Notes under the pieces: model-generated | The model's database searches: none | Told to the model about the DNA's origin: nothing | The model's input: the letters and a program-made list of their open reading frames with translations, nothing else | Made by a program: the position numbers and the translations under genes | NCBI GenBank assembly: GCA_038747425.1 | Contig: JBCDJV010000006.1 | Span: forward strand, 13,470-77,469 | DNA length: 64,000 bases | Direction of reading: 5' to 3' | From: Bacteroidota bacterium | Lineage (GTDB): Bacteria; Bacteroidota; Rhodothermia; Rhodothermales; JBCDJV01 | Part shown: positions 43,208-64,000 of the stretch, piece by piece | How the letters are laid out: each line of letters begins with the position of its first letter | Numbering within the stretch: position 1 is the first letter of the stretch

Positions 43208-43236
43208 GATGGCGTCGGTTCGTCTGTGTTCGATCG

Positions 43237-46650: not shown

Positions 46651-46706
46651 CTTCAATAAAGTTAGGCTCACCTTGCTAAAGAGTCTTGAGAGGCATCGTG
46701 GTCAAG

Positions 46707-47216
46707 ATGCCAGTACCTATGCGACGCACACAGCGCCTGCCCCAGTACGATTATCGGGCGTCCGGGGCGTACTTCGTGACCTGCTGCCTGCGCCCCAGGC
46801 GCCCGGTGTTCGGCCGGGTAACGCGGGTCGGGGTGCACCTCAGCCCCACCGGCTACCTCGCCGACGGTTGCTGGGAGGCCATCCCGGTGCATCACCCGCA
46901 CGTCCGCCTGGACGCCTTTGTCGTGATGCCGGATCACATCCATGGCCTGCTGTGGATCGAGCCGAGTCCGGTTACGTCGCGCGGTGCCTTCCGGCCGCGC
47001 ACCTTCGGGACGTCGCACGCGGGGTCGTTGTCGGTCGTCATCGGCACGTACAAGGCCGCCGTCACGCGGAGCGCCCGGCGCCAAGGCCTCGACCTCCCGA
47101 ACTGGCAGCCTCGTTTCTACGAGCACATCGTCCGCAACGAACGCGCGCTGCATGCCATCCGGCGCTACATCCGCGCCAACCCCCAGCGGTGGTTCGACCG
47201 GTACGGCGCAGGATAA
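46707..47216 (+). CDS. REP-associated tyrosine transposase (RAYT; IS200/Y1_Tnp-like HUH enzyme)
   Basis: RLPQYDYRASGAYFVTCC. HUH motif in VVMPDHIHGLLW. Catalytic-Tyr context QPRFYEHIVRNE. An alternative TTG start is at 46686. Confidence 0.8.
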   Translation: MPVPMRRTQRLPQYDYRASGAYFVTCCLRPRRPVFGRVTRVGVHLSPTGYLADGCWEAIPVHHPHVRLDAFVVMPDHIHGLLWIEPSPVTSRGAFRPRTFGTSHAGSLSVVIGTYKAAVTRSARRQGLDLPNWQPRFYEHIVRNERALHAIRRYIRANPQRWFDRYGAG

Positions 47217-47253
47217 CGCGCCCGCCGAACCGCCCCGCCCGTTGCCGCCGAAG

Positions 47254-47281
47254 GTAGGGACACGATATATCGTGTCCCTAC
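47254..47281. repeat. REP-like perfect 28-bp palindrome with GTAG head (GTAGGGACACGATAT|ATCGTGTCCCTAC)
   Basis: Read directly. It lies 38 nt after the RAYT stop codon. Confidence 0.8.
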
Positions 47282-47284
47282 TAC

Positions 47285-47374
47285 GGCGGTACCGAATGCC
47301 GTTGGCGTGGGGCCGATCGCCGTCGGGGCGGTACCGAATGCCGCGGGCGTCTGGCCGGGCGCCATCGGGGCGGG
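47285..47374. repeat. Two 42-bp tandem direct repeats plus a 6-nt start of a third (GGCGGTACCGAATGCCG...)
   Basis: Units 47285-47326 and 47327-47368 match at 35/42 positions. The third unit is truncated (GGCGGG at 47369-47374). Confidence 0.7.
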
Positions 47375-47398
47375 TCTGTATGTATCTGCGGGCGGTCA

Positions 47399-50173: not shown

Positions 50174-50345
50174 GGTGGAGGGAGCGGATCCACGGCGGAA
50201 GCCTTCAAGAAGCCTCAGGATACGCAAAACGAGATTGGGAAAGGGTCCCAATAGAGATGCCCAGTGGCTGGTAGCGAAAGAAAAGGGGGGCGTCTGAGCG
50301 CGAGGGCAGGCGGCCTGTCGGCTCACGCTCAGACACCCACGTCCG

Positions 50346-52016
50346 CTATTTGAGGAGGGTCATGCGGCGCGTCTGCCGCTGCTGTGACGTCTCCAGCGCA
50401 TACAGGTAGACGCCGCTGCTCACGAGCTGCCCGGCGTCGTTGCGACCGTTCCACTGGACCTCGTAGCTGCCTGGCGACGAAGCCTGGCCGTCAACCAACG
50501 TGCGCACGAGCTGGCCCATCACGTTGTAGACCCGCACCGAGACCACGTCGGCCTGGGGCAACACGTAGGAGATGGACGTGCTGGGGTTGAACGGGTTGGG
50601 ATAGTTCTGGCGCAAGATATAGGCGCCCGGGAGCTCGGCTACATCGTCTGTGGACGTCGCCTCAGCTTGGGCCTCGACCACGATGATCATCGGTTGCCCG
50701 GGAGACGAGGCGAACAAGTTGGTCAGCACGACTTCGTTGAGGCCATCCCCATCGAGGTCATCGGTGACGGTCATCGGGTAGTAGCGGTCCAACGGCTCGC
50801 CCACGCTCTCGAGCAGGGAGCTCCAGGTGTAGCTCGTCGAATCGGCGTAGCTGCCGGTGCCATTGTACTCGATGCGGGAGACGATTTCGGCGGTGCCGTG
50901 CGAGGCCACGATGTCCACGTTGCCGTCGCCATCGATGTCGCCCATGGCGCCTCCGCGCGCACTGCCGGTGGCATCGAACATGCCGATGGTGGTGAAGCTC
51001 TCGAACGTCAGGGTGGACACGTCGTCCAGGCTGTCCAAGAAATACAGGTTGCCATCGGTCATCGGATAAAACAGCTCCAGGCTGCCGTCGCCGTCCACGT
51101 CGTCGAACAGCATATCATGCGAGTTGAACCCGCCGGGGTCGTCCACGGGGTTGACGCCGTTAAGCTCAGCCTGTAGCTCGTAGGTGTCGGCCCCGGTGGC
51201 TTCCCAGACTGCCATGCTGAAGTTGTCCCACGTGTTGACCCAGATCTCGTTGAGGCCGTCGCCGTCGAAGTCAGCCACGTCCACGTCGTAGACGCCGCCG
51301 CCGCCCAAGATGGCTTCCCCGGCTTCGAACTCGATGCTGAAGGTGGCGAAGGCGTTGAGGTCGCCGTTGACGGTGGCCACCACGAGCTCGCGAGCCCCGC
51401 TCCGGCGAGACACCGTCAGGAGCTCCTGCGTGCCGTCGTTGTCCACGTCCACGATTTGGAAGCCAGCCGGCCGGAAATCGGCGCTGCCCTCCCGGTCATA
51501 GCCCCAGACGGCCGTCGGCTCATCCGGGAAGACGCCGGAGTCGTCTTGCTCAAACACAAAGAGGTCTTCGGCATCGTCATTGATGGTGGGCACGCCGAAG
51601 TAGATCTCGTTGAGGCCATCCCCATCGATGTCGCCATGGCCGAGTGCGGGGAGGGAGTTGGAGGGGATGTGCGAGTAGTGCCACACGTACTCATACGTGT
51701 TGTCGGCGGTGGCTTCGTAGAGGTAGACATCCAGGACGCCGGGGTCAGGGCCTTCAGGCGCTAGGGTTTCGTCGGTGGTGAAGAGAATTTCCTTGAGACC
51801 GTCCCCGTCCAGGTCCATCCCGGCTTGGACGCTGCGGGCGCCGAAGGCGGGGCCTCGGGGGAAGAGGTCCGGGAAATCACGTGGATCGAGGGTCCAGGAG
51901 ACGGTCAGGTCCGAGCCCGGCACATACTGGGCCACGGCGGGGGCGGCTGAGAGGCCCGTCATCAGACCAACGAGAAGGGTGCAAACGAAAAGTCGACCTG
52001 GTAGCGTACGACGCAT
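50346..52016 (-). CDS. FG-GAP/VCBS-repeat protein with T9SS C-terminal sorting domain
   Basis: Repeated D.DGDG..E(I/L) Ca-binding turns. CTD is NYPNPFNPSTSISYVLP...VRVYNVMGQLV...SGVYLYAL...MTLLK. Confidence 0.8.
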   Translation of the reverse strand: MRRTLPGRLFVCTLLVGLMTGLSAAPAVAQYVPGSDLTVSWTLDPRDFPDLFPRGPAFGARSVQAGMDLDGDGLKEILFTTDETLAPEGPDPGVLDVYLYEATADNTYEYVWHYSHIPSNSLPALGHGDIDGDGLNEIYFGVPTINDDAEDLFVFEQDDSGVFPDEPTAVWGYDREGSADFRPAGFQIVDVDNDGTQELLTVSRRSGARELVVATVNGDLNAFATFSIEFEAGEAILGGGGVYDVDVADFDGDGLNEIWVNTWDNFSMAVWEATGADTYELQAELNGVNPVDDPGGFNSHDMLFDDVDGDGSLELFYPMTDGNLYFLDSLDDVSTLTFESFTTIGMFDATGSARGGAMGDIDGDGNVDIVASHGTAEIVSRIEYNGTGSYADSTSYTWSSLLESVGEPLDRYYPMTVTDDLDGDGLNEVVLTNLFASSPGQPMIIVVEAQAEATSTDDVAELPGAYILRQNYPNPFNPSTSISYVLPQADVVSVRVYNVMGQLVRTLVDGQASSPGSYEVQWNGRNDAGQLVSSGVYLYALETSQQRQTRRMTLLK

Positions 52017-52157
52017 GCAGAAGCTCCTGTCTCAGTGAGACATGCTAAGGAGGGGAACGAGCGGAGAAGTAACAGAGAGGTGAAGTTGTAAAAACAGCAG
52101 AGGGAGGGACTAATGCAAGTCCCTCCCTCTGCGGTAGGCCGTTGAATGGAGGTGCCG

Positions 52158-54017
52158 TTACTTGATGAGCACCATGGAGCGGCTTTGGCGGAAGCTGCCC
52201 CATTCCAAGCTGTACAGGTAGGTGCCACTGGCCACGGTGGCGCCTGCATTGTTGGTGCCGTCCCACGTGACCTGGTGCGTGCCGGCAGCGTAGCGCTGAC
52301 CGTCGATCAGGGTTTTCACGAGGCGCCCGGTCACGTCGTAGACCCGCACGCTGACCGCCTTGTCGATGGGCAGCGTGAAGTCAAACGAGGTGGTCGGGTT
52401 GAACGGGTTCGGGTAGTTGCCGGACAGTTTGTAGTCAGACGGCAAGATGATGCGCTCGTCCTGCACAGACACCGAAGTGCCATCTCCCGAGATGACCCGC
52501 AGGTAGACACGGTTCTCGTTCACACGGGATTCCACGGTCTCGCGCACGAAGGCGGAGTCGGACGGGCTGTAGGTGGACTGGATCACAAACGTAGAGTCAT
52601 CCACGCCCTGGAACGCCAGGGCCACCTCGTTTTGGCCGTCGTTGTCCGGATCCCCGAGATAGGCCAACTTGGACACGAAGACGGGCCCCTGTGTGGGGTT
52701 CTCGAGGAACTCCGTCATGACGCCGGCGGAGTCCTGCCGGATCAGGTTGAAGGTGGTGGCCGTGGTGTCGTACGGCTGGGTGATGTCCAGCGACTCCACC
52801 TCCGAGTAGTTGGCCGGGTCTTCGGGGTCACCGCCCAAGAACTCGGTCACCCGCACGTACTGCGTGGGCGCTCCCTGGCTGCCGGCCGAGTAGGAGGGAC
52901 CACTCCCGATGAGCTCGATCTGGCCATCGCCATCAATGTCGCCTGCGGTCAGGCCCAGGCTGGTGAGTGTCGGGGCCAGGCCCAGAACAACGTTGTCCGG
53001 CGTGATCTGCAGCGGATCCTCGCCCTCCTCGTAGTTGAGCAGGGTCACGCTATTGGTCTGGAACGTCGGGAAGAAGACCTCGTCATCGCCGTTGCCATCG
53101 ATGTCCACCACAACCCCACCGAAGAGCGAGACATGGTCCGCATCGGACGCATTCAAGAACCCGTTGGCGTCCGTCTCGCCGGGAAAGACGTACGTGTCAG
53201 CGCCGGTGATGTCGCCGGTGGTGAGGTTGAAGTTATTCCACGAGTGCAAGGCGAGCTCAACCGTGCCGTCGCCATCGAGGTCAGCGGGATGGATGGCATA
53301 GGGGCTGCCACCCCCACGCGCTACCGGATCATAGTCCGTGACGCGGCTGGACAGACGGGCTTCGACGTTGAAGAATTCGAACCCACTGCCAATGTCGCCG
53401 CCGACAGAGAGGACGTACCAGCTGTCGAAGTCATTGTTGGCGCCGTTGTTACCGAACATGAGCTCTTCGGTGCCATCGCCATCGACGTCTTGGATGATCA
53501 TCTGCTCGGCGCGCCAGCGGTCCGGTAGGTCCACATCGAACGTGTAGATGGTAGTGGGCTCGGTGCCAAAGTCGGTGCCGTTGAATTCGAAGACGAAGAG
53601 GCCCGGCTCGTAGGGGCCGGTCTCGGAGTAGTTGCGTCCAGACAGGAAGACGATTTCGCCGTTACCGTCGCCGTCCAGGTCACCCCCGGCGATGGTGCGG
53701 ATGTTGTTGGTGGTAGCCGTGGAGTCTAGCCAAGGCGTCATGTAGGCCAGCTCCCAGGTATCGACGCCCACGTTCTCGATCACGTGCACGCGGCCGCCGC
53801 CGGTGTAGTCGGCGAGGAGGATTTCGAGTTGCCCATCACCGTCCAGATCGTGCGGGCCGCTCACGTCACGAGCACCGGAGCTCAGTCCGCTGGTGTAGGG
53901 GGCCATGAAGTCCTCGGAGGTCGGCACGTTGAGCTCGAGCTCCGTGGACTGAGACCATGCCGGGGCCACAAGCAGGCACAGTCCAAGTAAAGAGAAGAGA
54001 ATGGTAGCGTTACGCAT
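52158..54017 (-). CDS. FG-GAP/VCBS-repeat protein with T9SS C-terminal sorting domain (paralog of 50346-52016)
   Basis: Same repeat type (DLDGDGQLEIL, DVDGDGTEEL, DIDGNGDDEV, DIDGDGQIEL). CTD is NYPNPFNPTTSFDFTLP...VRVYDVTGRLV...SGTYLYSL...MVLIK. Confidence 0.8.
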   Translation of the reverse strand: MRNATILFSLLGLCLLVAPAWSQSTELELNVPTSEDFMAPYTSGLSSGARDVSGPHDLDGDGQLEILLADYTGGGRVHVIENVGVDTWELAYMTPWLDSTATTNNIRTIAGGDLDGDGNGEIVFLSGRNYSETGPYEPGLFVFEFNGTDFGTEPTTIYTFDVDLPDRWRAEQMIIQDVDGDGTEELMFGNNGANNDFDSWYVLSVGGDIGSGFEFFNVEARLSSRVTDYDPVARGGGSPYAIHPADLDGDGTVELALHSWNNFNLTTGDITGADTYVFPGETDANGFLNASDADHVSLFGGVVVDIDGNGDDEVFFPTFQTNSVTLLNYEEGEDPLQITPDNVVLGLAPTLTSLGLTAGDIDGDGQIELIGSGPSYSAGSQGAPTQYVRVTEFLGGDPEDPANYSEVESLDITQPYDTTATTFNLIRQDSAGVMTEFLENPTQGPVFVSKLAYLGDPDNDGQNEVALAFQGVDDSTFVIQSTYSPSDSAFVRETVESRVNENRVYLRVISGDGTSVSVQDERIILPSDYKLSGNYPNPFNPTTSFDFTLPIDKAVSVRVYDVTGRLVKTLIDGQRYAAGTHQVTWDGTNNAGATVASGTYLYSLEWGSFRQSRSMVLIK

Positions 54018-54189: not shown

Positions 54190-55035
54190 TCACAGCATCA
54201 GCCGATCCCGTAGCAGCTTGGAGCGATCCCGGCTCGCGATGACCTCATGGTCTCCCGCAAGCATCACCTTGAACCGGCCGCTGAACCAGGGTATCAGCTC
54301 TCGGATATGCTCCAGGCCAATCAAGGCCGAGCGGTGGACCCGCATGAAATCGCTGGGATCCAGGTTGCTCTCCAGCTGATCCAGGGTGTAGCTCACCACG
54401 TGCTTCCGGAGGCGAGGCGCGCCGGTGCGGGTCTCTTCGAGCACGAAGAGCCGCGTGATGCCCTCGTTGATTTCGGCGCTCACCAACTGACCGACGGGCA
54501 CCACCAGGATCCGGTCTGGGTAGGGGATGGAGAGCTGGCGTAGCGTCTCCGTGGGCAGCGCAACGGGACCCTGTGCCGCCGGTGGGGGGGCGGCCTGCGC
54601 CCGGGCCTCGACCCAGTCCAGCAGCGCCCCCAGCCGCTCGTCCACCGCCGTGCGATCGGCGGGGGCTCGAAGCAGGCGGTCGGCTTTGGAGAGGGCATCT
54701 TCCAGGCGCCCCCGCCCTATGGGCTTGAGCAGATAATCCACGGCACTGGCCTCGAAGGCGCGGACGGCATACGTGTCGTAGGCCGTGGTAAACACCACCA
54801 CCGGCCGACTCTCAGGCGAGAGACGCTCTAAGACCTCGAAGCCGTCCAGGCCGGGCATGCGGATATCCAGGAGCAGGACGTCTACCTCTTGATCGGCCAA
54901 CGCGTGCAGGGTGCTGGGGCCGTCGCCCGCCTCGCCCACCACCTGGACCGGGGTCCCGGGGTCGATGTCATCGAGCAGGCTGCGAAGCCGGTTTCGGGCG
55001 GGAGGCTCGTCGTCGGCGATGAAGACGCGAATCAT
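54190..55035 (-). CDS. LytR/AlgR-family response regulator (REC + LytTR)
   Basis: IRVFIADDEPPARNRL...VLLLDIRMPGLDGFE...DYLLKP. The C-terminal LytTR domain reads FMRVHRSALIGLEHIRELIPWFSGRFKVML. ATG at 55035. Confidence 0.9.
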   Translation of the reverse strand: MIRVFIADDEPPARNRLRSLLDDIDPGTPVQVVGEAGDGPSTLHALADQEVDVLLLDIRMPGLDGFEVLERLSPESRPVVVFTTAYDTYAVRAFEASAVDYLLKPIGRGRLEDALSKADRLLRAPADRTAVDERLGALLDWVEARAQAAPPPAAQGPVALPTETLRQLSIPYPDRILVVPVGQLVSAEINEGITRLFVLEETRTGAPRLRKHVVSYTLDQLESNLDPSDFMRVHRSALIGLEHIRELIPWFSGRFKVMLAGDHEVIASRDRSKLLRDRLML

Positions 55036-55063
55036 AACAAAGGAGGGTGGAGGAACGCGCAGG

Positions 55064-57727
55064 TTAGGGAGAGCCCAAGGAGGAGGGGACATCGCCGGGC
55101 CGCGGCGTGGGCACACGCGGGTGGGCGCTGTCTGGGCGGTGCGGGGGGCCGTCGCCGCTGGGGGCGCGGGGGGGAAGCCGGAGGGCGGCGGTGGTGCCTG
55201 AGTCGGGGGCGCTATGCAGGTGAAGCAGGTCGGGCTCGCCAAATAGGTGCTCCAGGCGAGAGGCCACGTTACGAAGGCCGATCCCGAAGAACGGGGCCAG
55301 CCCCACGTGCCCGTCAGGCCGATCAAACAAGGCTGGGATGCCGACGCCGGTGTCGTGGATGCGCACGCACACCGATCCATCCGGCTCGCGCGTGGCCTGG
55401 AGATGAAGCGTACCCGGCCCTGGCGCGGGTTCCAGGCCATGCTTGATGCTGTTCTCGACCAGCGTCTGAACCGAAAAGGCCGGGACGGGATGGGTGCGCA
55501 GCGATGGAGGCATGTCCAGCTGCACGGTGAGCCGGTCCCCGAAGCGCGCCTCTTCGATGTGGAGGTAGTGCCGCACCAGGTTCAGCTCTTCGTGGAGCGT
55601 GACGAAGGTGCGATCGCCGGTGTGGAGCGTGTGGCGGAAGATGGCCGCCAAGTCCTCCACCACCTCTTCAGCCTCCTCAGGCTGTTCGTGGATGAAGGCC
55701 AGCAGGGTGTTCAGAGCGTTGAAGAGAAAGTGCGGGTTGATCTGCGCCCGCAGCGCCACCAGGTTGGCCTCGGCCGTCTGGCGGACCAGCGCTTTTTCGC
55801 GCTCGACGAGCACAAGGCGCTCGATGGCCAGCGCGAGCTGGCTGCTGAGTGCCCGCAGCATGTCGAGGTCCGTCAGGTTGTAGACGCCAAAGCGGGTCCG
55901 CTTCGGCCCGAGGATCAGCAGGCCCATCGGGGAGCCCTCGCCCATGATGGGGACGGCCAACGCGGCCCCGTGCGCGGTGAGCAGGGCCGCCGGTGCCGGG
56001 GGCAACCGGCTGTCGTTGACCTCGGCGATACGGGACCAGATGCGCCCATCCTGCTGGATGTAGGGCCACACCTGACGCACGATGCGCTCGGTCAGGTACG
56101 GAGACTCCGGCTGGTAGCGGCTGGACACCCACCGGACGGGCTCGTCTTCGATTTGCACATACAGAACCCCGGAGCGCACGTCGAACGCTTGCCCCACCAC
56201 CTCCATGGTGCGCTGGATCAGCGTCTCGGGGTCGATGATGGTGCGCATCTGCTCCTGGAACTGGCGAAGCATACGCCGGGTGCGCGGCCCTTCGGTGCCA
56301 AAGAACTCCTGCGAGGTGGTTCGCAGCCGCCGCAGCACCCGCTCAAAAAGAAGCAAGACGACGGTGGCAAAGGCGCCGCCCACCACGTAGAGCGACGTCT
56401 CCAGCCGGTCTCGGTAGAAGTCGATGAGAGAAAGGCCCCCCACCACCAAGATGAACAGCAGCCCTGAGACCAAGGCGTACACCACGCCCCGGCTGATCAC
56501 CTGGTTGACCTTGCCGTAGCGGAGGGTGCTGAGCGAGACCAAGCTGATCGGGCCGATCGAGAGCAGCTGCGCGCTCACGATGAGCCAGCCGACCGTCTGG
56601 TCCGTCACCGCTTCAAGCAGCGGGACCACACCAGGCACCGTGAGCACGGCAAATAGGGCGATGAGCAGGGTCAGCCCGCTACCCGTGCGGCCCCAGCCGC
56701 CTACGAGATGCGCCGCTTCGTCGCTGCGGAACCGGTACAGGCCCAGCACCAACACGGAGGCGATGGCCACGTACCAACTCACGTAGAACAGCACCGGACC
56801 GATCAGCCGCGCCAGGGTGAACGGTCCCAAGGGCCCCGCCACGGTGGTGAACACCGCGAGGCCACAAAGGAGCAACGGCGGGGCATACACCAGCCCGATG
56901 ATCCAGGCCATCTGCGGCCCTCGTGGCAGGGACGTGTCGTGCACGATCTTATGAACCAGCAGAACAGGGAAGAGAATCCATCCCATGAGGCCCAGCAGCG
57001 TCAGCGCTTCGAAGAGCGGGGCAAAGGAGCTGCCTGGCATGATAGGCCCCAGCACCTGGATCAACAGGAGGCGGAACAGGGTGCCGAAGATCCACAGGGA
57101 GGACGCCGCAATGAGCAGGAGCGAGAAGCGCGCCCGGCGGCTGCGTAGGGCCAGGGGGGCCGCCAGAATCAAACCCAGCAGGTGGAGAAAGCCCCCGACG
57201 GTGAAGCTCCACAGAGAGAACTGCCACAGCGAGGGCGAGAGGGGATACAAAAACGTGGGATAAGGGCCGATGCGCACCTGTACGTCGAGCGGCTGGCCCG
57301 CCCGCGTGAGCGAGTAGGCGCGCTGTGATCCCGGTGGGATCCCTTCGATGGAGCGCTTGAGGTCCTGCGCCGTGAAGAACTGCGCCCCATCCAGCGTGAA
57401 GAAAAGGTCTCCGGCTTCGATCCCCGCGAGGTCGCCCGGGCCTCCGGGGAAGACGTAGGAGGCGGTGATGACGCCTTCCTCATCGGACCACACCACCCAG
57501 TCAAATCCAGGCGTGGCGGAGCTCGAGGGTGCATCCGGGACAAACGCCTGCATGTCCAGCCAGTCCAGCAGCAAGGTCCCTAGGGGCACCACAGCCACCA
57601 GGGGCGCAATCAGCAGGAGCGCACGGGCGATCAGGAAATAACGCTTCACAGAGAGGCGGTAGCGTGGTGACGTGACGTGGTGTCGTCCAGTGGGGGAGGC
57701 CCTGGGCGAACGAAAAGCGGGCCTCAT
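55064..57727 (-). CDS. Sensor histidine kinase, LytS/His_kinase (PF06580) type, with N-terminal PDZ-like domain, polytopic membrane region and GAF-like domain
   Basis: PDZ-like VFPGGPGDLAGIEAGDLFFTLDG. More than 8 hydrophobic spans. RAQINPHFLFNALNTL H-box. ENSIKHG...HDTGVGI...GIGLRNV ATPase motifs. Confidence 0.85.
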   Translation of the reverse strand: MRPAFRSPRASPTGRHHVTSPRYRLSVKRYFLIARALLLIAPLVAVVPLGTLLLDWLDMQAFVPDAPSSSATPGFDWVVWSDEEGVITASYVFPGGPGDLAGIEAGDLFFTLDGAQFFTAQDLKRSIEGIPPGSQRAYSLTRAGQPLDVQVRIGPYPTFLYPLSPSLWQFSLWSFTVGGFLHLLGLILAAPLALRSRRARFSLLLIAASSLWIFGTLFRLLLIQVLGPIMPGSSFAPLFEALTLLGLMGWILFPVLLVHKIVHDTSLPRGPQMAWIIGLVYAPPLLLCGLAVFTTVAGPLGPFTLARLIGPVLFYVSWYVAIASVLVLGLYRFRSDEAAHLVGGWGRTGSGLTLLIALFAVLTVPGVVPLLEAVTDQTVGWLIVSAQLLSIGPISLVSLSTLRYGKVNQVISRGVVYALVSGLLFILVVGGLSLIDFYRDRLETSLYVVGGAFATVVLLLFERVLRRLRTTSQEFFGTEGPRTRRMLRQFQEQMRTIIDPETLIQRTMEVVGQAFDVRSGVLYVQIEDEPVRWVSSRYQPESPYLTERIVRQVWPYIQQDGRIWSRIAEVNDSRLPPAPAALLTAHGAALAVPIMGEGSPMGLLILGPKRTRFGVYNLTDLDMLRALSSQLALAIERLVLVEREKALVRQTAEANLVALRAQINPHFLFNALNTLLAFIHEQPEEAEEVVEDLAAIFRHTLHTGDRTFVTLHEELNLVRHYLHIEEARFGDRLTVQLDMPPSLRTHPVPAFSVQTLVENSIKHGLEPAPGPGTLHLQATREPDGSVCVRIHDTGVGIPALFDRPDGHVGLAPFFGIGLRNVASRLEHLFGEPDLLHLHSAPDSGTTAALRLPPRAPSGDGPPHRPDSAHPRVPTPRPGDVPSSLGSP

Positions 57728-57831
57728 TGATTCCCCGGTCTGCACGGGGGCTTCTGGCGGTGGGTCTCCGGGGACCCTGGATCGGGGAGGGCACGTACTC
57801 TGCGGCCGCTTCCACCTGACCCCGCTCGCCC

Positions 57832-58871: not shown

Positions 58872-59477
58872 ATGCCTGAAATCCCCGAGTACTACAAACA
58901 CCTCGCTAGCCAGAAAAAAGAGGCGCCCCCTCCGCGCCCAAGCCGCGAGCAGCCGGCGCGGCCGACGCCGACCGGCCCTGCACCCATGGGGGCTGCCTAT
59001 CGGGCTCAGACGTTTGATCTGCGCCTGGCGGAGGGCTGGGACGATCAGACGGTCTACACCCTGCTGGGGCCTGTAGAAGACGATGTACAGCACAACGTCA
59101 CGGTTGTCGTGGGGTCCGATATCAACGAAGAGATGACCCTGATCGAGTTCGCTCAGACGCACATTCAAACCGTGGAGCAGCAGCTCAAAGGGTGCCGGGT
59201 TCTTCTCAAAGAACGCGTGGCGTTGGCGAGCGGCCGCCCGGCGGTGCGCGCCATCTACGTCTGGTATCCCACGGAAGAGGTGCGCCTGTACCAGGAGCAG
59301 CTGTACATCCTCGACACGCCCCGCAGCTACATTCTCACGGCTTCGTTTTCAAAAAAGACACGCAAAACGCTGGGCCCAGCCGTCGAGCGCATGATGCTGA
59401 GCTTTGAGCCACACGATCCGGCCCGGCATCAACCTCCCCCTGCACGCTCGGATGGGGCCTACGCCTACCGTCGCTGA
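58872..59477 (+). CDS. Cytoplasmic DUF1795 (DcrB/Eag-like) domain protein with Pro-rich N-terminal extension
   Basis: No signal peptide. The core F.L.LAEGWDDQTVYTLLGP.....HNVTVVVGSDINEEMTLIEFAQTHIQTVEQQLKGCRVLLKERVALASGRPAVRAIYVWYP.EEVRLYQEQLYIL....SYILTASF follows the DUF1795 pattern (f.lP.gW.D.sv....p......l.i.r......tl.e....q...l...l.g.......................q.q......). Confidence 0.6.
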   Translation: MPEIPEYYKHLASQKKEAPPPRPSREQPARPTPTGPAPMGAAYRAQTFDLRLAEGWDDQTVYTLLGPVEDDVQHNVTVVVGSDINEEMTLIEFAQTHIQTVEQQLKGCRVLLKERVALASGRPAVRAIYVWYPTEEVRLYQEQLYILDTPRSYILTASFSKKTRKTLGPAVERMMLSFEPHDPARHQPPPARSDGAYAYRR

Positions 59478-59519: not shown

Positions 59520-61406
59520 ATGGACGCCCCCTCCAAACGCGGTCAGTTCACCATTACCTCCACCCCAGACGAGACTCGTGTCGTGCGGGAGGCCCCCGCC
59601 GAGGCCCGCGAAGAGGTGGCCTTGCCGCTGCGCCTGCTGTTCGTGAGCGACCTCCTCCCTCACCGATCGGCGCCCAACTGGGAGGAGGGCACCCACCGTG
59701 TGCGGGTGGACCCGTACCGGTACACGGATCTGATGCAGTCGTATGCCCCTCGGTTGGACATCACCGTGCCCAACCGGCTGAGTGAGACGCCCAGCCACCT
59801 GGAGCTGGAATTGACCGTGACCAGCCTCAAAGGACTGCGGCCGGATCGCCTCCTGAGCCAGATCCCTGAGCTGACCCGGCTCACGGCCATCCGAGGCCTT
59901 GTGGGGCAAGTCCAGGAGAAGCAGCTCGGGTTGGATCGATTCAAGGCCGAGTTGAAGGCCATCGGCGTCGAGGCTGCCTGGGCCGCTCAGCTGTACGATG
60001 CTCTCGCCCAGCCGCCCGCCGCCCCTCCACCATCCCGTAGCACCTCCTCGGCCGCGCCCTCCTCAGACGATGCAGCCTTGGACCGCTTGTTTTCGATGGT
60101 CGATGTAGAGGGGGACAGCGAGGACGAGGCGCCGCCGGCGCCAGAGGCAGAATCGGGGACGGGCGGTATGCTCATGGATGCCCTCATGGGCGCCGTCACC
60201 GGTTCGAGTGCACCGTCCGCGCGCGTCAAACAGGACGCCGCCACCCTGATGCTGGACGATCTGGACACCACGATCCAAGCGCAGCTTAACGAGGTGATGA
60301 GCCACCCGGCTGTCCGAGCGCTGGAACGTTCGTGGCGCAGCCTCAAGCTGCTCGTGGACCGGCTGGACATGCGGCGTGGGATCCAACTGGAGGTGCTGGC
60401 TGCCGCGAAAGACGACCTCAGCGAGGCGCTGTACCATCAGGTCCTGATGCCAGAGCACGCGGCCACGGACCCGTCGCATGTACCGCTGGCCGCCATCGTC
60501 CTCGACACGGACTTCTCCCATACCAACGCTGACCTCGAATTGCTAGCCGACCTGGCGGAGACCTGTGCGAGCTTGCAGGTGCCGTTGCTGGCGGGCGTGG
60601 AGGCCTCCTTCTTTGGTGTTGAGACGCCGACCGGCCTCAACAAGCTGCCGCTGCTGTGGCAGCATCTCCAAGGCTATGCCTATGCGGAGTGGAATGCGCT
60701 CCGGAAGAAGCCTGAGGCCTCCTACGTGTCCCTGTTTGTGCCTCCCCTCCTGCTCCGCGCGCCCTACGGACCGGACCACAGCGCCGGGCTGCCGTTCGAG
60801 GAAGACGGATACGTGTGGGGATCAGGAGCCTTGGCGGCGGCCATCATGATGGGGCAGAGCTTTGCCCAGACCGGATGGCCAACGCATCTGGGTAGCACGA
60901 AGCACCATCGCCTCCAAGACATGCCGACCTGGCCCAGCCAGCAGGGGGCCATCTCGGTGGCTGCGCTCATCAACGAAGACAAGCAGGTCGAGCTGGCGCA
61001 ATCTGGCTTCGGGGTGCTGAGCGGCCGACCGAACCAAGACGTGGTCTACCTGGCGCAAAGCCCCACCCTCGCCGACCTCGAAGCCGGGGCCGAGGCCGAG
61101 ATGACCACCGCGTCCCTGGCGGGCCAGCTGTTCGCCTCACGAATGGCTCAACTCTTGCTGCGCTACCAGCAAGCACTGCCCGCTGGTACCTCCACGGCCT
61201 CAGCCCAAGCCGATCTGCAACATCGGCTGGCTCACCTGTTCGGGGTTGGGGAGGAGCAAGAAGAGGTCTTCCGCGTGCAACCCGTACCCGAGCTGGCGAC
61301 GGCGGCCTACGAGGTCCTGGCGGTGGTGCTGCACCCCCCAGAGACCGTGGTGCCCCGGTCGGTCCGGCTCACGTTGGCCGTTCAGGTGACCAAGGCCAGC
61401 GGCTGA
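59520..61406 (+). CDS. T6SS contractile-sheath-like protein: single-polypeptide TssB(VipA)-TssC(VipB) fusion
   Basis: The N-terminal part resembles TssB: EEVALPLRLLFVSDL......VPNRL....LELELTVTSLKGLRPDRLLSQIPELTRLTAIRGL. This compares with VipA ELPLKLLAIGDY...VPNRL...L.F.SLKDF.P..V..QVPEL..LL.LR. A ~75-aa P/S/A/D/E-rich linker follows. The C-terminal part resembles TssC: LDDLDTTIQAQLNEVMSHPAVRALERSWRSLKLLV..., ...AEWNALRKKPEASYVSLFVPPLLLRAPYG, ...YVWGSGALAAAIMMGQSFAQTGW, ...LFASRMAQLLL. ATG at 59520. Confidence 0.75.
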   Translation: MDAPSKRGQFTITSTPDETRVVREAPAEAREEVALPLRLLFVSDLLPHRSAPNWEEGTHRVRVDPYRYTDLMQSYAPRLDITVPNRLSETPSHLELELTVTSLKGLRPDRLLSQIPELTRLTAIRGLVGQVQEKQLGLDRFKAELKAIGVEAAWAAQLYDALAQPPAAPPPSRSTSSAAPSSDDAALDRLFSMVDVEGDSEDEAPPAPEAESGTGGMLMDALMGAVTGSSAPSARVKQDAATLMLDDLDTTIQAQLNEVMSHPAVRALERSWRSLKLLVDRLDMRRGIQLEVLAAAKDDLSEALYHQVLMPEHAATDPSHVPLAAIVLDTDFSHTNADLELLADLAETCASLQVPLLAGVEASFFGVETPTGLNKLPLLWQHLQGYAYAEWNALRKKPEASYVSLFVPPLLLRAPYGPDHSAGLPFEEDGYVWGSGALAAAIMMGQSFAQTGWPTHLGSTKHHRLQDMPTWPSQQGAISVAALINEDKQVELAQSGFGVLSGRPNQDVVYLAQSPTLADLEAGAEAEMTTASLAGQLFASRMAQLLLRYQQALPAGTSTASAQADLQHRLAHLFGVGEEQEEVFRVQPVPELATAAYEVLAVVLHPPETVVPRSVRLTLAVQVTKASG

Positions 61407-61485
61407 CCTGTGTCTTTTCAGGGCACCGCCGGTGGCGGAGCGCCTCTGTTCCACCTGCATGTTGCCGCCCACGTCGACCTTGCCG

Positions 61486-63174
61486 ATGCCACCTCGCCTC
61501 GCGATTCAGGAACAGGACGGCTCCGGGCCGATCCGGACCTTCGATGCCTCCTTCACGATGGGTCGCAGTGAAGACTGCGAATACCCCGTGCCGTTGCCCA
61601 TCGTCAGCCGCCGGCATACCACGGTAGAGCTTGATAGCCAGGGCTGGCTGGTTCGAGACCTGGGCAGCGCCAATGGCACGTACCTGGACGGCAAGCGGGT
61701 GCGTGACGCGCGCCTTGAGGGCGAACACGTCCTCAAGTTGGGCAACCGCGGGCCCGCCTTCACCGTGTCGCTGGTGGACACAGCGGCGGCTTCTTCTGGG
61801 CGTGACGCCCCGGCCAGCCGGCCCGCCCCGTCCCGGCGTGCCGACCGCCTCGCCTCGCCGACCTCGATCACCGAAGCCTCGGCGGCAACCTCTGTGGAGA
61901 CGCCAGGTCCCGCCGAGCGGAGCACAGCGGCCCGGGGCCCAGAGCCCCCGGCGGGACGCCGTGGGGCCAACGAGGGCCGGTCCCTGAGCGAGTACATGGA
62001 ACACTACTTCGGCGAGTCCGGGCAGCCCGCTGGGGAGCACACGCAGATGATCCGGCAGGCCTACCAGGTCGTCGAACAGAAGAAGCGGGTCCGGTTCATC
62101 TATATCTTGGCGGCCTTGGGCGTGGTGGTGGTGCTCGTCGGGGGGTATGCCATCTACCAGCGCATGGAGCGGGCCGAGCTGGAGACGTTAGCGCTGGAGG
62201 CGTTCGAAGACGTGCGCCGCCAGAATGCCAGCATCCTCCAGGCACAAAATGCCATCGCGTTGAAAGCCGGGGAGCCGGATGCGACGCTCCAGGACATCAT
62301 CCGTGACCTGCAGCAGACCCGCGAGCGGCAGCTGGATCGCTACGACAACTTCGTGGAAGAACTGGGCTACCGACGGGCGCCCACGGCTGAGGAGCGGGCC
62401 ATCTACCGGGTGGCCCGCATCTTCAACGAAAGCGAGATACAAAGCGCCATCCCCGCCGATTTCATCCGGTCTGTGCGAGATACCATCGCCATCTGGCAAT
62501 CGAGCAACCGGTTTCAGCGGGCGGTGGAGCGGGCCAACCGCCTCGGCTACACGCCGATGATCGTGGAGACCTTCCGCAAGTATGGACTCCCCCCGGAGTT
62601 TTTCTACCTGTCCATGCAGGAGAGCAACTTCAACGAGCGGGCGATTGGGCCTCGCACCCGGTGGGGGATTGCCAAGGGCATGTGGCAGTTCATCCCGAGT
62701 ACAGGGGAAGCCTACGGCCTCGCCATTGGACCTCGGGATGACCTCCGCTCGTTCGACCCGCAGGACGACCGGTTCGACCCCGCGAAGGCCACAGACGCCG
62801 CCGCACGCTACCTGCTGGAAATCCACAGCCAGCTCTCGGGAGCTTCTAGCCTGTTGGCGATGGCCTCGTACAACTGGGGCGAGCGCCGCGTCGTACCCCG
62901 TCTGCAAGATATGCTGGCCGAAAACGGCATCACCGACGAGACCGATGAGGTCTCCGACCGTTCGTACTGGGCGTTCTACAAGAAGTACGGCCGCATCATG
63001 CCTGACGAGACCAAAGGGTACGTGGCGCGCATCTTTGCCGCGGCGGTGATCGGGCAAGATCCCCAGCTCTGGGGCTACGACATGGAGAACCCCTTGCTGC
63101 CGTATCTGGAAGGGGGCGCTTCGGTGGATACCACTCCCCGTGCGGCCGAGGCCGAGGCGGACGGGGACCTGTGA
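61486..63174 (+). CDS. FHA domain - transmembrane - lytic transglycosylase (SLT) domain protein
   Basis: FHA: FTMGRSEDCEYPVPLPIVSRRHTTVELDSQGWLVRDLGSANGTYLDGKRV. Then a S/P/A-rich spacer and a TM segment FIYILAALGVVVVLVGGYAIY. SLT motifs: YLSMQESNFN, GIAKGMWQFIPSTG, MASYNWGE. The start lies between GTG 61432 and ATG 61486. Confidence 0.8.
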   Translation: MPPRLAIQEQDGSGPIRTFDASFTMGRSEDCEYPVPLPIVSRRHTTVELDSQGWLVRDLGSANGTYLDGKRVRDARLEGEHVLKLGNRGPAFTVSLVDTAAASSGRDAPASRPAPSRRADRLASPTSITEASAATSVETPGPAERSTAARGPEPPAGRRGANEGRSLSEYMEHYFGESGQPAGEHTQMIRQAYQVVEQKKRVRFIYILAALGVVVVLVGGYAIYQRMERAELETLALEAFEDVRRQNASILQAQNAIALKAGEPDATLQDIIRDLQQTRERQLDRYDNFVEELGYRRAPTAEERAIYRVARIFNESEIQSAIPADFIRSVRDTIAIWQSSNRFQRAVERANRLGYTPMIVETFRKYGLPPEFFYLSMQESNFNERAIGPRTRWGIAKGMWQFIPSTGEAYGLAIGPRDDLRSFDPQDDRFDPAKATDAAARYLLEIHSQLSGASSLLAMASYNWGERRVVPRLQDMLAENGITDETDEVSDRSYWAFYKKYGRIMPDETKGYVARIFAAAVIGQDPQLWGYDMENPLLPYLEGGASVDTTPRAAEAEADGDL

Positions 63175-63260
63175 ACAACTCTTGACGCCGGGGTGGAAGG
63201 CCTAACCTGACCCCCAAGGTCCCGTAGAGCGAGCTCTACGTTTTCCTATGGGGCCTTCCT

Positions 63261-64000
63261 GTGTATCTATCTCCCGAGATCGCCTGGCGGCGTGTGGCCG
63301 TGGGCGGCGGCCTCCTGCTCGCCTGGTCAGTGCCGGCGCTGGTGGCACTCAGCTACTACTACCTGAACCAGACGGTTACGGCCCAGCCGTTGGACTGGCG
63401 GTTTGGTCTGATCAGCACGCTGCCCAACTGGTACCTCTGGGCGCTCTTCTCGCCACTGGTCATGGTCCTGGCCCGTCGGGTGCGGCCGCGTGGGTCGGGG
63501 CTAAGCGCGTGGGGGCCTGTGCTGGCGGCACATCTGGGCCTGCTGAGCGTGCTGCTTCTGGTGCATGCGGGGGCCAACCTGGCGTTGTTTACCGGGACCG
63601 GGCTGCACGAGGAAGCGACCGCCAGCCTGTACCGGGTTCATCTCGGCGTGCGCTTGCACAGCAACGTCTTGGCCTACATCGCGCTCGCTGGGGCCGTGTA
63701 TGCGGTCGATTACTATCGGCAGAATCAGGAGCGGCAGCGACGGGCGGCGCAGCTAGAGGCGCAGCTGGCACAAGCCCACCTCCGGGCCCTGCGCATGCAG
63801 CTCAACCCGCACTTTCTCTTCAACGCCTTGCATGCGGTGGGGAGCCTGGTCCGGACCGGGAATGCTGAGGCGTCGGTCCAGATGATCGGACGGCTCGGGG
63901 CGTTCATGCGGGTCGCCTTGGAGAGCAACGGACAGCAGGAACAGCCCCTCGAGCACGAACTGGCCTTTGTACGGCGCTACCTGGAAATCGAGGAAATCCG
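63261..64000 (+). CDS. Sensor histidine kinase, LytS/His_kinase (PF06580) type, 5' part (runs off the window)
   Basis: This frame is not in the ORF track because no stop is reached. GTG at 63261, then 4-5 hydrophobic spans, then QLAQAHLRALRMQLNPHFLFNALHAVGSLV...PLEHELAFVRRYLEIEEI. Confidence 0.75.
   Translation, partial: MYLSPEIAWRRVAVGGGLLLAWSVPALVALSYYYLNQTVTAQPLDWRFGLISTLPNWYLWALFSPLVMVLARRVRPRGSGLSAWGPVLAAHLGLLSVLLLVHAGANLALFTGTGLHEEATASLYRVHLGVRLHSNVLAYIALAGAVYAVDYYRQNQERQRRAAQLEAQLAQAHLRALRMQLNPHFLFNALHAVGSLVRTGNAEASVQMIGRLGAFMRVALESNGQQEQPLEHELAFVRRYLEIEEI

What the first reader, a model, noticed from the sequence alone, without database searches (positions are those of the whole stretch)
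59520..61406. TssB and TssC fused into one polypeptide through a low-complexity linker, with a shortened TssC part
Approximate domain map from the sequence follows. The TssB-like part is about nt 59616-60011. It runs from EEVALPLRLLFVSDL through VPNRL and SLKGLRPDRLLSQIPELTRL. The linker is about nt 60012-60230 (PPAAPPPSRSTSSAAPSSDD...EGDSEDEAPPAPEAESGTGG). The TssC-like part is about nt 60240-61403. It starts at the hallmark helix LDDLDTTIQAQLNEVMSHPAVRALERSWRSLKLLV. The TssC-like part is roughly 385 aa, whereas canonical TssC proteins are, as I recall, close to 490-500 aa. Some insertion or domain is therefore probably missing, possibly the region used for ClpV-mediated recycling. A covalent 1:1 fusion fixes sheath stoichiometry and is not the arrangement in the well-studied T6SS subtypes.
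Basis: partly seen in the sequence, partly recalled or inferred. Interest (0 to 1): 0.7.

Follow-up and report, generated by a model that had tools for sequence, protein, structure and literature searches.

The report
Extra fused TssB–TssC sheath paralog
The gene really does encode the two type VI secretion sheath proteins joined into one full-length chain, but in relatives where the wider neighbourhood can be read (including this gene's own Rhodothermales-type family) it is an extra, fast-evolving copy kept alongside an ordinary separate TssB/TssC pair, which points to an undescribed accessory part of the secretion machine rather than a re-designed main sheath.

Summary
ORF 59520-61406 (+), 628 aa, carries TssB (PF05591) and TssC (PF05943) homology in one frame. 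About 135 of the 150 best-scoring 50%-identity cluster representatives show the same fusion, including cultured Rhodothermales, so it is not a frameshift artefact.

The "shortened TssC" reading fails. The "linker" contains a conserved motif (aa 183-197, DDAALDRLFSMVDVE) homologous to the N-terminal TssC helix that recruits ClpV. The protein aligns collinearly with canonical TssB+TssC (628 vs 683 aa; only the junction tails and several short loops are shorter). The AF2 model (pLDDT 86.9) covers the TssC fold (TM 0.66-0.79).

The larger correction concerns context. In Rubrivirga IMCC45206 and two metagenomic contigs, complete T6SS-i clusters with ordinary split tssB/tssC also carry this fused gene at one end. 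Fused paralogs sit beside split pairs in Azospirillum, Thermoanaerobaculia and Polyangiaceae too. The fused copy evolves faster (38-44% vs 69-72% identity). In 17 of 17 readable Rhodothermales-type loci it is followed by an FHA-TM-lytic transglycosylase gene.

In the window only an Eag-like chaperone, the fused gene and FHA-SLT are present, with no T6SS core genes in 64 kb.

Best reading: an undescribed accessory sheath-lattice subunit. Its precise role is inferred, not shown.

The parts
58872..59477 (+). DcrB/DUF1795-family gene: a cytoplasmic Eag-like T6SS effector chaperone, first gene of the three-gene module
   Evidence: PF08786 E 6.8e-10. No signal peptide or hydrophobic segment. Its only PDB matches are EagT6/PA0094, E about 0.006, full length. 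Homologs lie directly upstream of the fused gene in L012 and L016 and further upstream in L001.
59520..61406 (+). Fused TssB-TssC paralog ORF (628 aa from the ATG at 59520; the ORF opens at a TTG at 59496)
   Evidence: The homolog N-termini (MADSHSPSIGLRISSDPD...) fit the ATG start.
59520..60008 (+). TssB/VipA-homologous part (aa 1-163), including the conserved N-terminal strand region (aa 9-22; S14 95%, T19 89%) and three C-terminal helices
   Evidence: PF05591 at aa 27-159. The family profile matches VipA/TssB chains over positions 17-181. Secondary structure; conservation.
60009..60065 (+). True covalent linker L1 (aa 164-182): Pro/Ser-rich, variable, 7-30 aa across the family
   Evidence: Gap-rich, low-conservation columns. 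Per-sequence lengths. pLDDT below 50.
60066..60110 (+). Conserved motif DDAALDRLFSMVDVE (aa 183-197), homolog of the N-terminal TssC helix that recruits ClpV
   Evidence: Aligns to VipB LDEIMAQTR in the profile search. The family consensus is (D/E)xLDRL(L/M)GMVDxG. Canonical TssCs of the same clusters start ...SLLDSILAKVDV.... The role of this helix is described in PMC5048182. AF2 places a helix at 186-192.
60111..60227 (+). Variable acidic/Pro-rich segment L2 (aa 198-236), corresponding to the flexible stretch after the N-terminal helix of canonical TssC
   Evidence: pLDDT below 50.
60228..61076 (+). TssC core (aa 237-519): domain-3 helices plus the PF05943 sheath domain
   Evidence: PF05943 at aa 245-514; pLDDT above 90; collinear with canonical TssC.
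61077..61403 (+). Divergent C-terminal domain (aa 520-628), equivalent to the TssC gpW/gp25-like domain with the terminal beta-strands
   Evidence: No PF18945 hit. Even so, the profile alignment runs to chain residue 425-470 of 473-493. Helices 533-552 and 559-574 and strands 584-588, 597-604 and 617-624 are modelled confidently. The end-to-end alignment with canonical TssC includes the last strands.
61432..63174 (+). FHA - single TM - SLT lytic transglycosylase protein, the conserved partner gene
   Evidence: PF00498 at aa 42-104 and PF01464 at aa 383-487. TM at aa 223-241 preceded by KKRVR. Immediately downstream of the fused gene in 17/17 readable Rhodothermales-type loci.
63223..63240 (+). 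Terminator-like hairpin after the FHA-SLT gene, the probable end of the three-gene unit
   Evidence: This is a consensus scan only, so the evidence is weak.

Best explanation
The ORF is a genuine, intact member of a large unnamed family of single-chain TssB-TssC proteins. Shown: it contains a complete TssB part and a complete TssC part. Shown: the TssC part includes the homolog of the ClpV-recruiting N-terminal helix and the C-terminal strand domain. Shown: a 19-aa Pro/Ser-rich linker joins the two parts.

Shown in relatives: the family is an additional paralog carried by otherwise complete T6SS-i clusters that keep ordinary split tssB and tssC. It evolves about twice as fast as the canonical sheath. 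In the Rhodothermales-type clade it always sits directly upstream of a bitopic FHA(cytoplasm)-TM-SLT(periplasm) protein, usually followed by PP2C phosphatase and Ser/Thr kinase genes.

Inferred: the protein is an accessory sheath-lattice subunit present in few copies. It would join the canonical TssBC sheath through the retained handshake strands, most likely as a specialised terminal ring at the baseplate/membrane-proximal end. This would be the T6SS counterpart of the extra sheath paralogs of extracellular contractile injection systems. It would be removed by ClpV like ordinary sheath subunits. It would be coupled, perhaps through phospho-threonine recognition by the FHA domain, to local peptidoglycan opening by its SLT partner.

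In this window the module (Eag-like chaperone, fused gene, FHA-SLT) stands alone and presumably serves a main T6SS cluster elsewhere in the genome.
For: Identity: Pfam, NCBIfam and PDB matches to both subunits. Profile alignment covers VipB residues 4-425 of 473 and the 9n4v_A TssC homolog (deposited as 'DUF877 family protein') residues 16-470 of 493. AF2 pLDDT 86.9, pTM 0.83. Foldseek TM 0.66-0.79 on TssC chains. End-to-end collinearity with canonical TssB+TssC.

Family: 75 of 77 homologs fused; about 135 of the top 150 cluster representatives fused; cultured hosts.

Extra paralog: L144 carries TagF, TssA, TssB, TssC (both Pfam domains), Hcp, TssE/F/G, ClpV, VgrG, Rhs, DUF2169 and then the fused gene. 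In Rubrivirga CP177357.1 the canonical cluster (L167) lies 3.4 kb from the fused-gene locus (L004) on the same strand. On contig_59221, L168 overlaps L016. Azospirillum, Thermoanaerobaculia and Polyangiaceae show a fused gene beside a split pair.

Faster evolution: 38-44% vs 69-72% identity between the same genome pairs; long branches outside the tight canonical clade.

Partner: FHA-SLT downstream in 17/17 loci, and adjacent in a Nitrospirota locus (L023); topology.

Retained interaction elements: the N-terminal strand region and the helix motif are conserved yet low-confidence in the monomer model, as expected for segments that fold only on partners. ClpV is encoded in the clusters.

Not described: literature searches and the 2026 accessory-factor review found nothing comparable.
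Against: No experiment or oligomer model bears on whether the protein polymerises, where it sits or what it binds. The 'terminal ring' role is an analogy. The window's genome could not be searched, so a canonical tssBC pair there is assumed, not shown. The closest relative's locus (L001) is equally isolated. The NJ tree is rough and does not prove a single origin of the fused forms. Two MAG loci (L070, L074) have canonical-clade TssB and TssC fused in place before tssE, which shows that a fused chain might also work as a main sheath. The window lacks the PP2C and kinase genes, so the phospho-coupling idea has no local support.
Confidence: 0.55

Rival explanations
1. One reading: the fused chain is itself the contractile sheath, either the only one in this genome or an alternative homopolymer built on the same baseplate, with stoichiometry fixed by covalent linkage.
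For: All sheath elements are retained: both subunits, domain-3 helices, the ClpV-helix homolog and the terminal strands. No split tssB/tssC is seen in the 64-kb window or within 10 kb in L001. In-place fused canonical-type TssBC ORFs in two MAGs suggest a fused sheath can function.
Against: Wherever enough context is visible, a canonical split pair is present in the same cluster. The fused paralog diverges about twice as fast as canonical TssC, which is unexpected for a homopolymer that must keep lattice, Hcp, TssE, TssA and ClpV contacts. It scores below the NCBIfam equivalog cut-offs for both TssB and TssC. The window has no hcp, tssE/F/G/K or vgrG nearby.
Confidence: 0.2
2. A non-polymerising regulator or decoy: a sheath-protomer mimic that titrates or positions ClpV, TssA or the FHA protein as a checkpoint of the threonine-phosphorylation pathway, without entering the sheath lattice.
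For: The gene sits in the regulatory arm of the cluster, next to FHA-SLT, PP2C and the Ser/Thr kinase. The ClpV-helix homolog is the best-conserved part of the disordered region. Fast evolution. A family-specific conserved Thr19 lies in a flexible N-terminal segment.
Against: The handshake strands at both termini and the full three-domain protomer are conserved and confidently folded, which a simple decoy would not need. The window and L001 keep the gene without the kinase and phosphatase.
Confidence: 0.15
3. Artefact or decay: a sequencing or assembly frameshift joined ordinary tssB and tssC, or the locus is a degenerating remnant of a lost T6SS cluster.
For: The module is isolated from any T6SS core genes in the window. 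The Eag-like chaperone has no adjacent effector.
Against: The same in-frame architecture, with a conserved junction motif, appears in well over a hundred divergent clusters and in complete isolate genomes. There are no internal stops. The ORF shows high GC3 coding bias. The model is high-confidence. The three genes are syntenic with L001, L012 and L016.
Confidence: 0.02

Closest known systems
Canonical T6SS sheath TssB/TssC (VipA/VipB, HsiB/HsiC; PDB 3j9g, 5mxn, 5urw, 9n4v)
   Same: Homologous over the whole length of both subunits. Same three-domain protomer fold (TM 0.66-0.79 on TssC chains). Retains the N-terminal TssC helix homolog and the terminal strands.
   Different: One polypeptide instead of two. 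Only 28-32% identical to the canonical TssC of the same genomes. Below the NCBIfam equivalog cut-offs. The C-terminal domain is too divergent for PF18945. About 55 aa shorter in loops and tails. Encoded away from tssA/hcp/tssE and in addition to a canonical pair. Evolves about twice as fast.
Additional sheath paralogs of extracellular contractile injection systems (Afp2/3/4, Pvc2/3/4), some confined to baseplate-proximal layers. This is from my knowledge of the AFP and PVC cryo-EM studies; such chains appear among the Foldseek hits (9qgl_3A/4A, 6rao_D, 6j0n_t).
   Same: A contractile system that encodes a main sheath protein plus divergent sheath-fold paralogs. This offers a precedent for a low-copy adaptor ring.
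   Different: Only distant fold similarity (query-normalised TM 0.29-0.33, 10-13% identity). Those systems are not T6SS-i, have no TssB/TssC split and no ClpV recycling. No such ring has been reported for T6SS.
T6SS 'firing coordinator' accessory proteins TsmA/TagA, TsmB/TagB and TagJ (review PMC13584744)
   Same: Accessory, clade-restricted factors encoded in T6SS loci that act on the sheath, TssA or ClpV.
   Different: None is sheath-derived and there is no sequence or fold relationship. The review does not list any TssB/TssC paralog or fusion.
TagH/Fha1 of the threonine-phosphorylation pathway, and the lytic transglycosylase MltE (for the partner gene)
   Same: An FHA domain protein encoded with PpkA- and PppA-like genes in relatives. 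SLT-type lytic transglycosylase activity is needed for T6SS membrane-complex insertion in EAEC.
   Different: Here both functions are in one bitopic protein encoded inside the T6SS locus. The review states MltE is not encoded in T6SS loci. It has no T6SS_FHA_C domain.
In-place fused canonical TssBC ORFs in two MAGs (L070 Planctomycetota, L074 Pseudomonadota)
   Same: TssB and TssC in one ORF.
   Different: Those fall inside the canonical TssC clade (45-53% identity to Azospirillum TssC). They occupy the canonical position before tssE (after tssA and before hcp in L074) with no second sheath gene visible. They are a different, probably independent event, or MAG artefacts.

Membership tests
TssC, T6SS contractile sheath large subunit (PF05943 + PF18945; NCBIfam TIGR03355 equivalog) | N-terminal sheath domain PF05943 | tested here: met
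   E 5.7e-46, 157 bits against a cut-off of 27, aa 245-514.
TssC, T6SS contractile sheath large subunit (PF05943 + PF18945; NCBIfam TIGR03355 equivalog) | C-terminal gpW/gp25-like domain PF18945 | tested here: inconclusive
   No Pfam hit at E<=1, and none of the 75 fused homologs carries it. However, the profile alignment, the AF2 model and the alignment to canonical TssC show a collinear, folded C-terminal domain with the terminal strands.
TssC, T6SS contractile sheath large subunit (PF05943 + PF18945; NCBIfam TIGR03355 equivalog) | Score above the curated equivalog cut-off | tested here: not met
   147 bits against a cut-off of 271.5. NCBI names homologs 'sheath domain-containing protein'.
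TssC, T6SS contractile sheath large subunit (PF05943 + PF18945; NCBIfam TIGR03355 equivalog) | N-terminal helix that recruits ClpV | tested here: met
   The homologous motif at aa 183-197 aligns to the VipB helix, is conserved in the family and is similar to canonical TssCs of the same clusters. Its role is described in PMC5048182. Actual binding cannot be tested here.
TssC, T6SS contractile sheath large subunit (PF05943 + PF18945; NCBIfam TIGR03355 equivalog) | Separate polypeptide encoded after tssB in the tssA-tssB-tssC-hcp-tssE operon | tested here: not met
   It is fused to the TssB part. The neighbours are an Eag-like gene and FHA-SLT. There are no T6SS core genes in the window.
TssC, T6SS contractile sheath large subunit (PF05943 + PF18945; NCBIfam TIGR03355 equivalog) | Polymerises with TssB into a contractile tube around Hcp | not testable with these tools
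   This needs oligomer modelling or an experiment.
TssB, sheath small subunit (PF05591; TIGR03358 equivalog) | PF05591 domain above the Pfam cut-off, and a score above the NCBIfam equivalog cut-off | tested here: inconclusive
   Pfam criterion met (64.6 bits against 24). NCBIfam equivalog criterion not met (61.8 bits against 97.25).
Fused TssB-TssC paralog family (unnamed; defined here) | Single ORF of about 575-690 aa with PF05591 then PF05943, and a junction consisting of a Pro-rich linker, a (D/E)xLDRL(L/M)GMVDxG motif and a variable segment | tested here: met
Fused TssB-TssC paralog family (unnamed; defined here) | FHA-TM-SLT gene immediately downstream (Rhodothermales-type clade) | tested here: met
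   Window 61432-63174. Found in 17/17 readable related loci.
Fused TssB-TssC paralog family (unnamed; defined here) | Falls outside the canonical TssC clade and co-occurs with a canonical split pair in the same genome | tested here: inconclusive
   Tree position met (rough NJ tree). Co-occurrence is shown for relatives but could not be tested for the window's own genome.
T6SS-i main gene cluster | The 13 core genes tssA-M clustered near the gene | tested here: not met
   None in the 64-kb window. Present next to the fused gene in relatives: tssA-C, hcp, tssE-G, clpV and vgrG in L144; additionally tssK, tssL and tssM in L167+L004; and also tssJ in L168+L016.
Phage / eCIS tail sheath proteins | Closest structural or sequence match among sheath-fold proteins | tested here: not met
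   Foldseek query-normalised TM 0.22-0.34 and 8-14% identity, against 0.45-0.53 and 17-24% for T6SS TssC chains.

The most novel reading that the evidence does not exclude
T6SS-i machines in several phyla contain a previously unrecognised structural element: one or two rings of single-chain TssB-TssC paralogs. Most lineages would have the 'long' form seen here; Acidobacteriota would have a 'short' form as well. The rings would form an adaptor layer between the baseplate or membrane complex and the canonical sheath, analogous to the Afp4/Pvc3-4 layers of extracellular injection systems. A bitopic FHA-lytic-transglycosylase would recruit or license this layer, tying sheath nucleation to local cell-wall opening and Thr-phosphorylation signalling.
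Probability: 0.25. Interest if true: 0.8.

Novelty: new variant of a known kind. Interest (0 to 1): 0.6.

Why it matters
The T6SS sheath is regarded as a two-protein polymer with a fixed set of 13 core parts, and the known accessory factors that act on it are unrelated proteins.

The evidence here points to a large, phylogenetically broad family of fused TssB-TssC paralogs. In the loci where enough context is visible, these sit inside complete T6SS-i clusters next to an ordinary sheath pair. That suggests an extra, sheath-derived component whose role is unknown. Possible roles are nucleation, capping, anchoring or regulation.

It also brings to light a locus-encoded FHA-lytic transglycosylase. 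This could answer how some T6SSs cross the cell wall and how the phosphorylation pathway connects to assembly.

Cultured carriers exist (Rubrivirga, Rhodocaloribacter litoris, Roseithermus sacchariphilus RA), so the question is directly testable.

For annotation practice, these genes are currently labelled 'sheath large subunit' or 'hypothetical'. A pipeline that counts them as tssC could mis-score T6SS presence in genomes that, like this window, show only the orphan module.

Tried and rejected
(1) Frameshift artefact. Rejected on family-wide conservation of the in-frame junction.

(2) Missing TssC subdomain or ClpV region. Rejected by the profile, structure and collinear alignments.

(3) A new T6SS subtype with a fused sheath replacing TssB/TssC. 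This was my working idea, when only VgrG/PAAR/DUF2169 and FHA-SLT/PP2C/STK were visible within 10 kb. It was rejected once walking upstream from ClpV exposed canonical clusters with split tssB/tssC.

(4) Looking for T6SS core genes in the window by tblastn against related loci and Pfam scans of about 40 ORFs. None found.

(5) Testing whether the genome of the closest homolog (the 4.8-Mb chromosome CP030158.1; the same 90%-identity cluster also holds the Roseithermus sacchariphilus RA protein) has a canonical TssC, by matching contig lengths in the TssC homolog list. Uninformative, because only the best 120 of 7,958 hits are listed.

(6) Literature searches for natural TssB-TssC fusions, sheath paralogs, FHA-LT fusions and T6SS in Rhodothermales. 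Nothing relevant. The one 'fused TssB' hit I opened was an sfGFP-TssB construct.

(7) Promoter scan of the module. No sigma-70-like sites, which is not informative for this phylum.

(8) A single origin for all fused forms. The NJ tree is too rough to settle this, and two fused ORFs fall inside the canonical clade.
Full report
**1. Observation.** The window contains one uninterrupted ORF at 59496/59520..61406 on the + strand, with strong GC3 coding bias.
- Pfam finds T6SS_VipA (TssB) at aa 27-159 (E 1e-17) and the VipB (TssC) N-terminal domain at aa 245-514 (E 6e-46), but not the TssC C-terminal model PF18945.
- NCBIfam finds both sheath subunits, each below its equivalog cut-off: 147 against 271.5 bits for TssC, and 61.8 against 97.25 bits for TssB.
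- Sequence search of the PDB hits VipB/TssC and VipA/TssB chains.

**2. Not an artefact.**
- Of 77 homologs, 75 carry both domains in one protein of roughly 490-690 aa.
- An exhaustive search of 1.84 billion cluster representatives gives 211 hits at E<=1e-30. About 135 of the best 150 are 575-690-aa proteins matched in a single stretch spanning both parts. The first ordinary 510-aa TssC appears only near rank 137.
- Carriers include complete genomes and cultured strains: Rubrivirga sp. IMCC45206, Rhodocaloribacter litoris and Roseithermus sacchariphilus (Rhodothermaceae bacterium) RA.
- The window's own protein is not in the collection; the best hit is 49% identical.

**3. The 'linker' and the 'shortened TssC'.**
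These are a variable Pro/Ser-rich stretch (aa 164-182; 7-30 aa across the family), a conserved motif (aa 183-197, DDAALDRLFSMVDVE; family consensus (D/E)xLDRL(L/M)GMVDxG), and a second variable acidic stretch (aa 198-236).
- A profile of A1 against PDB sequences aligns that motif to the N-terminal VipB helix (LDEIMAQTR). It then carries the TssC alignment from profile position 186 to 586-606, against chain residues 4-425 of 473 (VipB) and 16-470 of 493 (9n4v_A).
- Canonical TssCs from related Rhodothermales clusters begin ...GSLLDSILAKVDV... or ...DSLLDNIFSQVDM....
- This N-terminal helix is the element through which ClpV is recruited to contracted sheaths (PMC5048182).
- A MAFFT alignment of fused proteins with concatenated canonical TssB+TssC of the same lineage is collinear from the first to the last residue. 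The 55-aa deficit (628 vs 173+510) comes from the trimmed TssB tail and TssC head at the junction, a shorter post-helix segment, and loop deletions of 11, 7, 5 and about 9 aa. The C-terminal strands align.
- The AlphaFold2 model built on A1 has mean pLDDT 86.9 and pTM 0.83. Apart from the first ~30 residues, only aa 165-183 and 192-236 are disordered, with a short helix at 186-192 between them. The C-terminal 100 aa are confident.
- Foldseek aligns 411-437 columns with VipB/TssC chains at target-normalised TM 0.66-0.79.
- The TssC part is therefore about 446 aa and complete. The proposal that a ClpV-related region is missing is not supported.

**4. Context in the window.**
- Upstream (58872-59477) is a DcrB/DUF1795 protein without a signal peptide. 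Its only PDB matches are EagT6/PA0094, so it is an Eag-type effector chaperone.
- Downstream (61432-63174) is a protein with an N-terminal FHA domain, one TM helix (aa 223-241, positive-inside) and a C-terminal SLT lytic transglycosylase domain.
- A terminator-like hairpin follows at 63223-63240.
- LytS/LytTR regulators flank the module. The remaining ~58 kb encode housekeeping functions, T9SS-type cargo and a rhodopsin. No T6SS core gene is present.

**5. Context in relatives.**
- All 18 Rhodothermales/Bacteroidota/KSB1 loci with the fused gene are syntenic. FHA-SLT follows immediately in 17/17 where the sequence continues.
- Most then continue with PP2C, a Ser/Thr kinase, two TPR/CsgG-like lipoproteins and a FlgD_ig protein. 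Upstream they are preceded by ClpV, VgrG, PAAR, Rhs, a pentapeptide-repeat protein and DUF2169.
- Walking upstream from the ClpV gene with the metagenome collection exposed the rest. L144 reads TagF, TssA, TssB (173 aa), TssC (510 aa, with PF05943+PF18945), Hcp, TssE, TssF, TssG, ClpV, VgrG, Rhs, pentapeptide, DUF2169, and then a fused gene whose TssB part runs in frame through SLDRLLGLVD into the TssC part.
- In Rubrivirga sp. IMCC45206, locus L167 (TssK, TssL, TssM, TagF, TssA, TssB, TssC, Hcp, TssE/F/G, ClpV, VgrG, PAAR, Rhs; record positions 238919-260445) lies 3.4 kb from L004 (fused gene, FHA-SLT, PP2C, STK...; 213789-235522) on the same strand of CP177357.1.
- On contig_59221, L168 (TssJ through PAAR) overlaps L016 (Eag-like, fused gene, FHA-SLT...).
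- Five more canonical TssC hits lie on contigs whose lengths equal those of fused-gene contigs.
- The fused protein is therefore an additional paralog of complete T6SS-i clusters, not their sheath.

**6. Beyond this clade.**
- In Azospirillum a distant fused homolog sits between tssC and tssE.
- In Thermoanaerobaculia and Polyangiaceae a fused gene lies next to a split pair.
- In other Acidobacteriota loci, TssK, TssL and TssM (preceded by TssJ in L024) are followed by a short (~489 aa) and a long (605-644 aa) fused paralog and then VgrG. The same short-plus-long tandem of fused genes, without the core genes in view, occurs in the unclassified low-GC locus L025.
- A rough NJ tree puts the canonical TssCs, including those of fused-gene carriers, in a tight short-branched clade. 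Most fused forms fall on long branches outside it.
- Between the same genome pairs, canonical TssC is 69-72% identical and the fused paralog 38-44%. Within a genome the two are 28-32% identical.
- Two MAG ORFs (L070, L074) are different. They fall in the canonical clade and are fused in place before tssE, so they are independent fusions or assembly errors.

**7. Mechanism.**
- Shown: a complete, foldable TssB+TssC protomer in one chain; retention of the ClpV-helix homolog and of the N- and C-terminal strand regions; co-residence with a canonical sheath, ClpV and the rest of T6SS-i in relatives; faster evolution; and obligate adjacency to a bitopic FHA-SLT protein.
- Inferred: the protein enters or abuts the canonical sheath lattice in low copy number and is a ClpV client. 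The N-terminal strand region and the helix motif are conserved yet unstructured in the monomer model, as expected for partner-dependent segments.
- Its gene neighbours differ by lineage: TssE in Azospirillum, TssM and VgrG in Acidobacteriota, and FHA-SLT here. Extracellular injection systems offer a precedent for extra sheath paralogs near the baseplate. Together these make the baseplate/membrane-proximal end the most likely site.
- The FHA domain may bind a phospho-threonine on it (Thr19 is 89% conserved and family-specific) or on another component. This step is speculative.
- Rivals are an alternative or sole sheath, a non-polymerising regulator, and an artefact or remnant. They are weighed in the structured fields.

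**8. Comparison and novelty.**
- By the curated NCBIfam cut-offs the protein is not an equivalog of TssB or TssC. It works like, and descends from, the sheath protomer, but is best filed as a separate, unnamed paralog family.
- Full-text searches found no description of natural TssB-TssC fusions or sheath paralogs. The August 2026 review of T6SS accessory factors lists TssA, TsmA/TagA, TsmB/TagB and TagJ as sheath-acting accessories. It mentions no sheath paralog or FHA-transglycosylase fusion, and notes that MltE is not encoded in T6SS loci.
- I rate it a new variant of a known kind, of moderate-to-good interest.

**9. Limits.**
- The window's genome outside these 64 kb could not be examined.
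- No oligomer modelling was possible.
- The tree is approximate.
- All functional statements about position in the machine, ClpV binding and phospho-regulation are inferences.

Noticed in passing
window 61432-63174 (+): A bitopic protein with a cytoplasmic FHA domain, one TM helix (aa 223-241) and a periplasmic SLT lytic transglycosylase (QES catalytic-type motif). It is conserved immediately downstream of the fused gene in 17/17 related loci, and in relatives is followed by PP2C and Ser/Thr kinase genes. It combines TagH-like and MltE-like functions. The 2026 T6SS accessory-factor review lists no such protein.
   Followed up: partly
window 58872-59477 (+): A DcrB/DUF1795 protein without a signal peptide. 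Its only PDB matches are EagT6/PA0094, so it looks like an Eag-type T6SS effector chaperone. No effector gene is adjacent in the window; in L016 an ~800-aa TM-rich protein precedes it.
   Followed up: partly
L022, L024, L033 (Acidobacteriota) and L025; e.g. L033:8526-9992 and 10004-11818: Two fused paralogs in tandem; in the Acidobacteriota loci they sit between TssM and VgrG. The first is a short form (~489 aa; VipA at aa 18-97 directly followed by VipB at 104-372), so it probably lacks the domain-3 helices and the ClpV-helix region. The second is a long form like the window's.
   Followed up: partly
L070:2834-4780 (Planctomycetota MAG) and L074:9770-11707 (Pseudomonadota MAG): Canonical-clade TssB and TssC (45-53% identical to Azospirillum TssC) lie in one ORF at the canonical position before tssE (after tssA and before hcp in L074). 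These are either independent in-place fusions or MAG assembly errors.
   Followed up: partly
L007:10001-11815 (Azospirillum sp.): A distant 604-aa fused paralog is inserted between canonical tssC and tssE in a proteobacterial T6SS-i cluster. It retains the DLDSLLSMVD motif. Shorter (~493-516 aa) proteobacterial fused forms (P0060-P0077) end soon after the PF05943 domain.
   Followed up: partly
window 35686-36480 (-): A bacteriorhodopsin-like protein (PF01036, E 5e-42). This fits a Rhodothermales-type organism.
   Followed up: no
window 40428-54017 (-): A type IX secretion neighbourhood. It includes an amidase with a T9SS C-terminal sorting domain, a PorV-like protein (42155-43207), a 1144-aa ORF with no Pfam hit (43237-46671, possibly PorU-like), a TonB-dependent receptor-like protein, and two FG-GAP/FlgD_ig proteins with sorting-domain hits.
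   Followed up: no
window 54190-57745 (-) and 63228-63998 (+): LytS-type histidine kinases (one with a GAF domain) and a LytTR response regulator flank the three-gene module on both sides. Whether they regulate it is unknown.
   Followed up: no
L002/L004/L017, 16.1-21.8 kb (downstream of the kinase): A conserved set of two TPR/CsgG-like lipoproteins, a FlgD_ig protein and a ~360-aa signal-peptide protein with no Pfam hit (a possible outer-membrane barrel, judged from its sequence only) follows the PP2C and kinase genes in most Rhodothermales clusters. It may be a sensor or outer-membrane module of the phosphorylation pathway. It is absent from the window.
   Followed up: no
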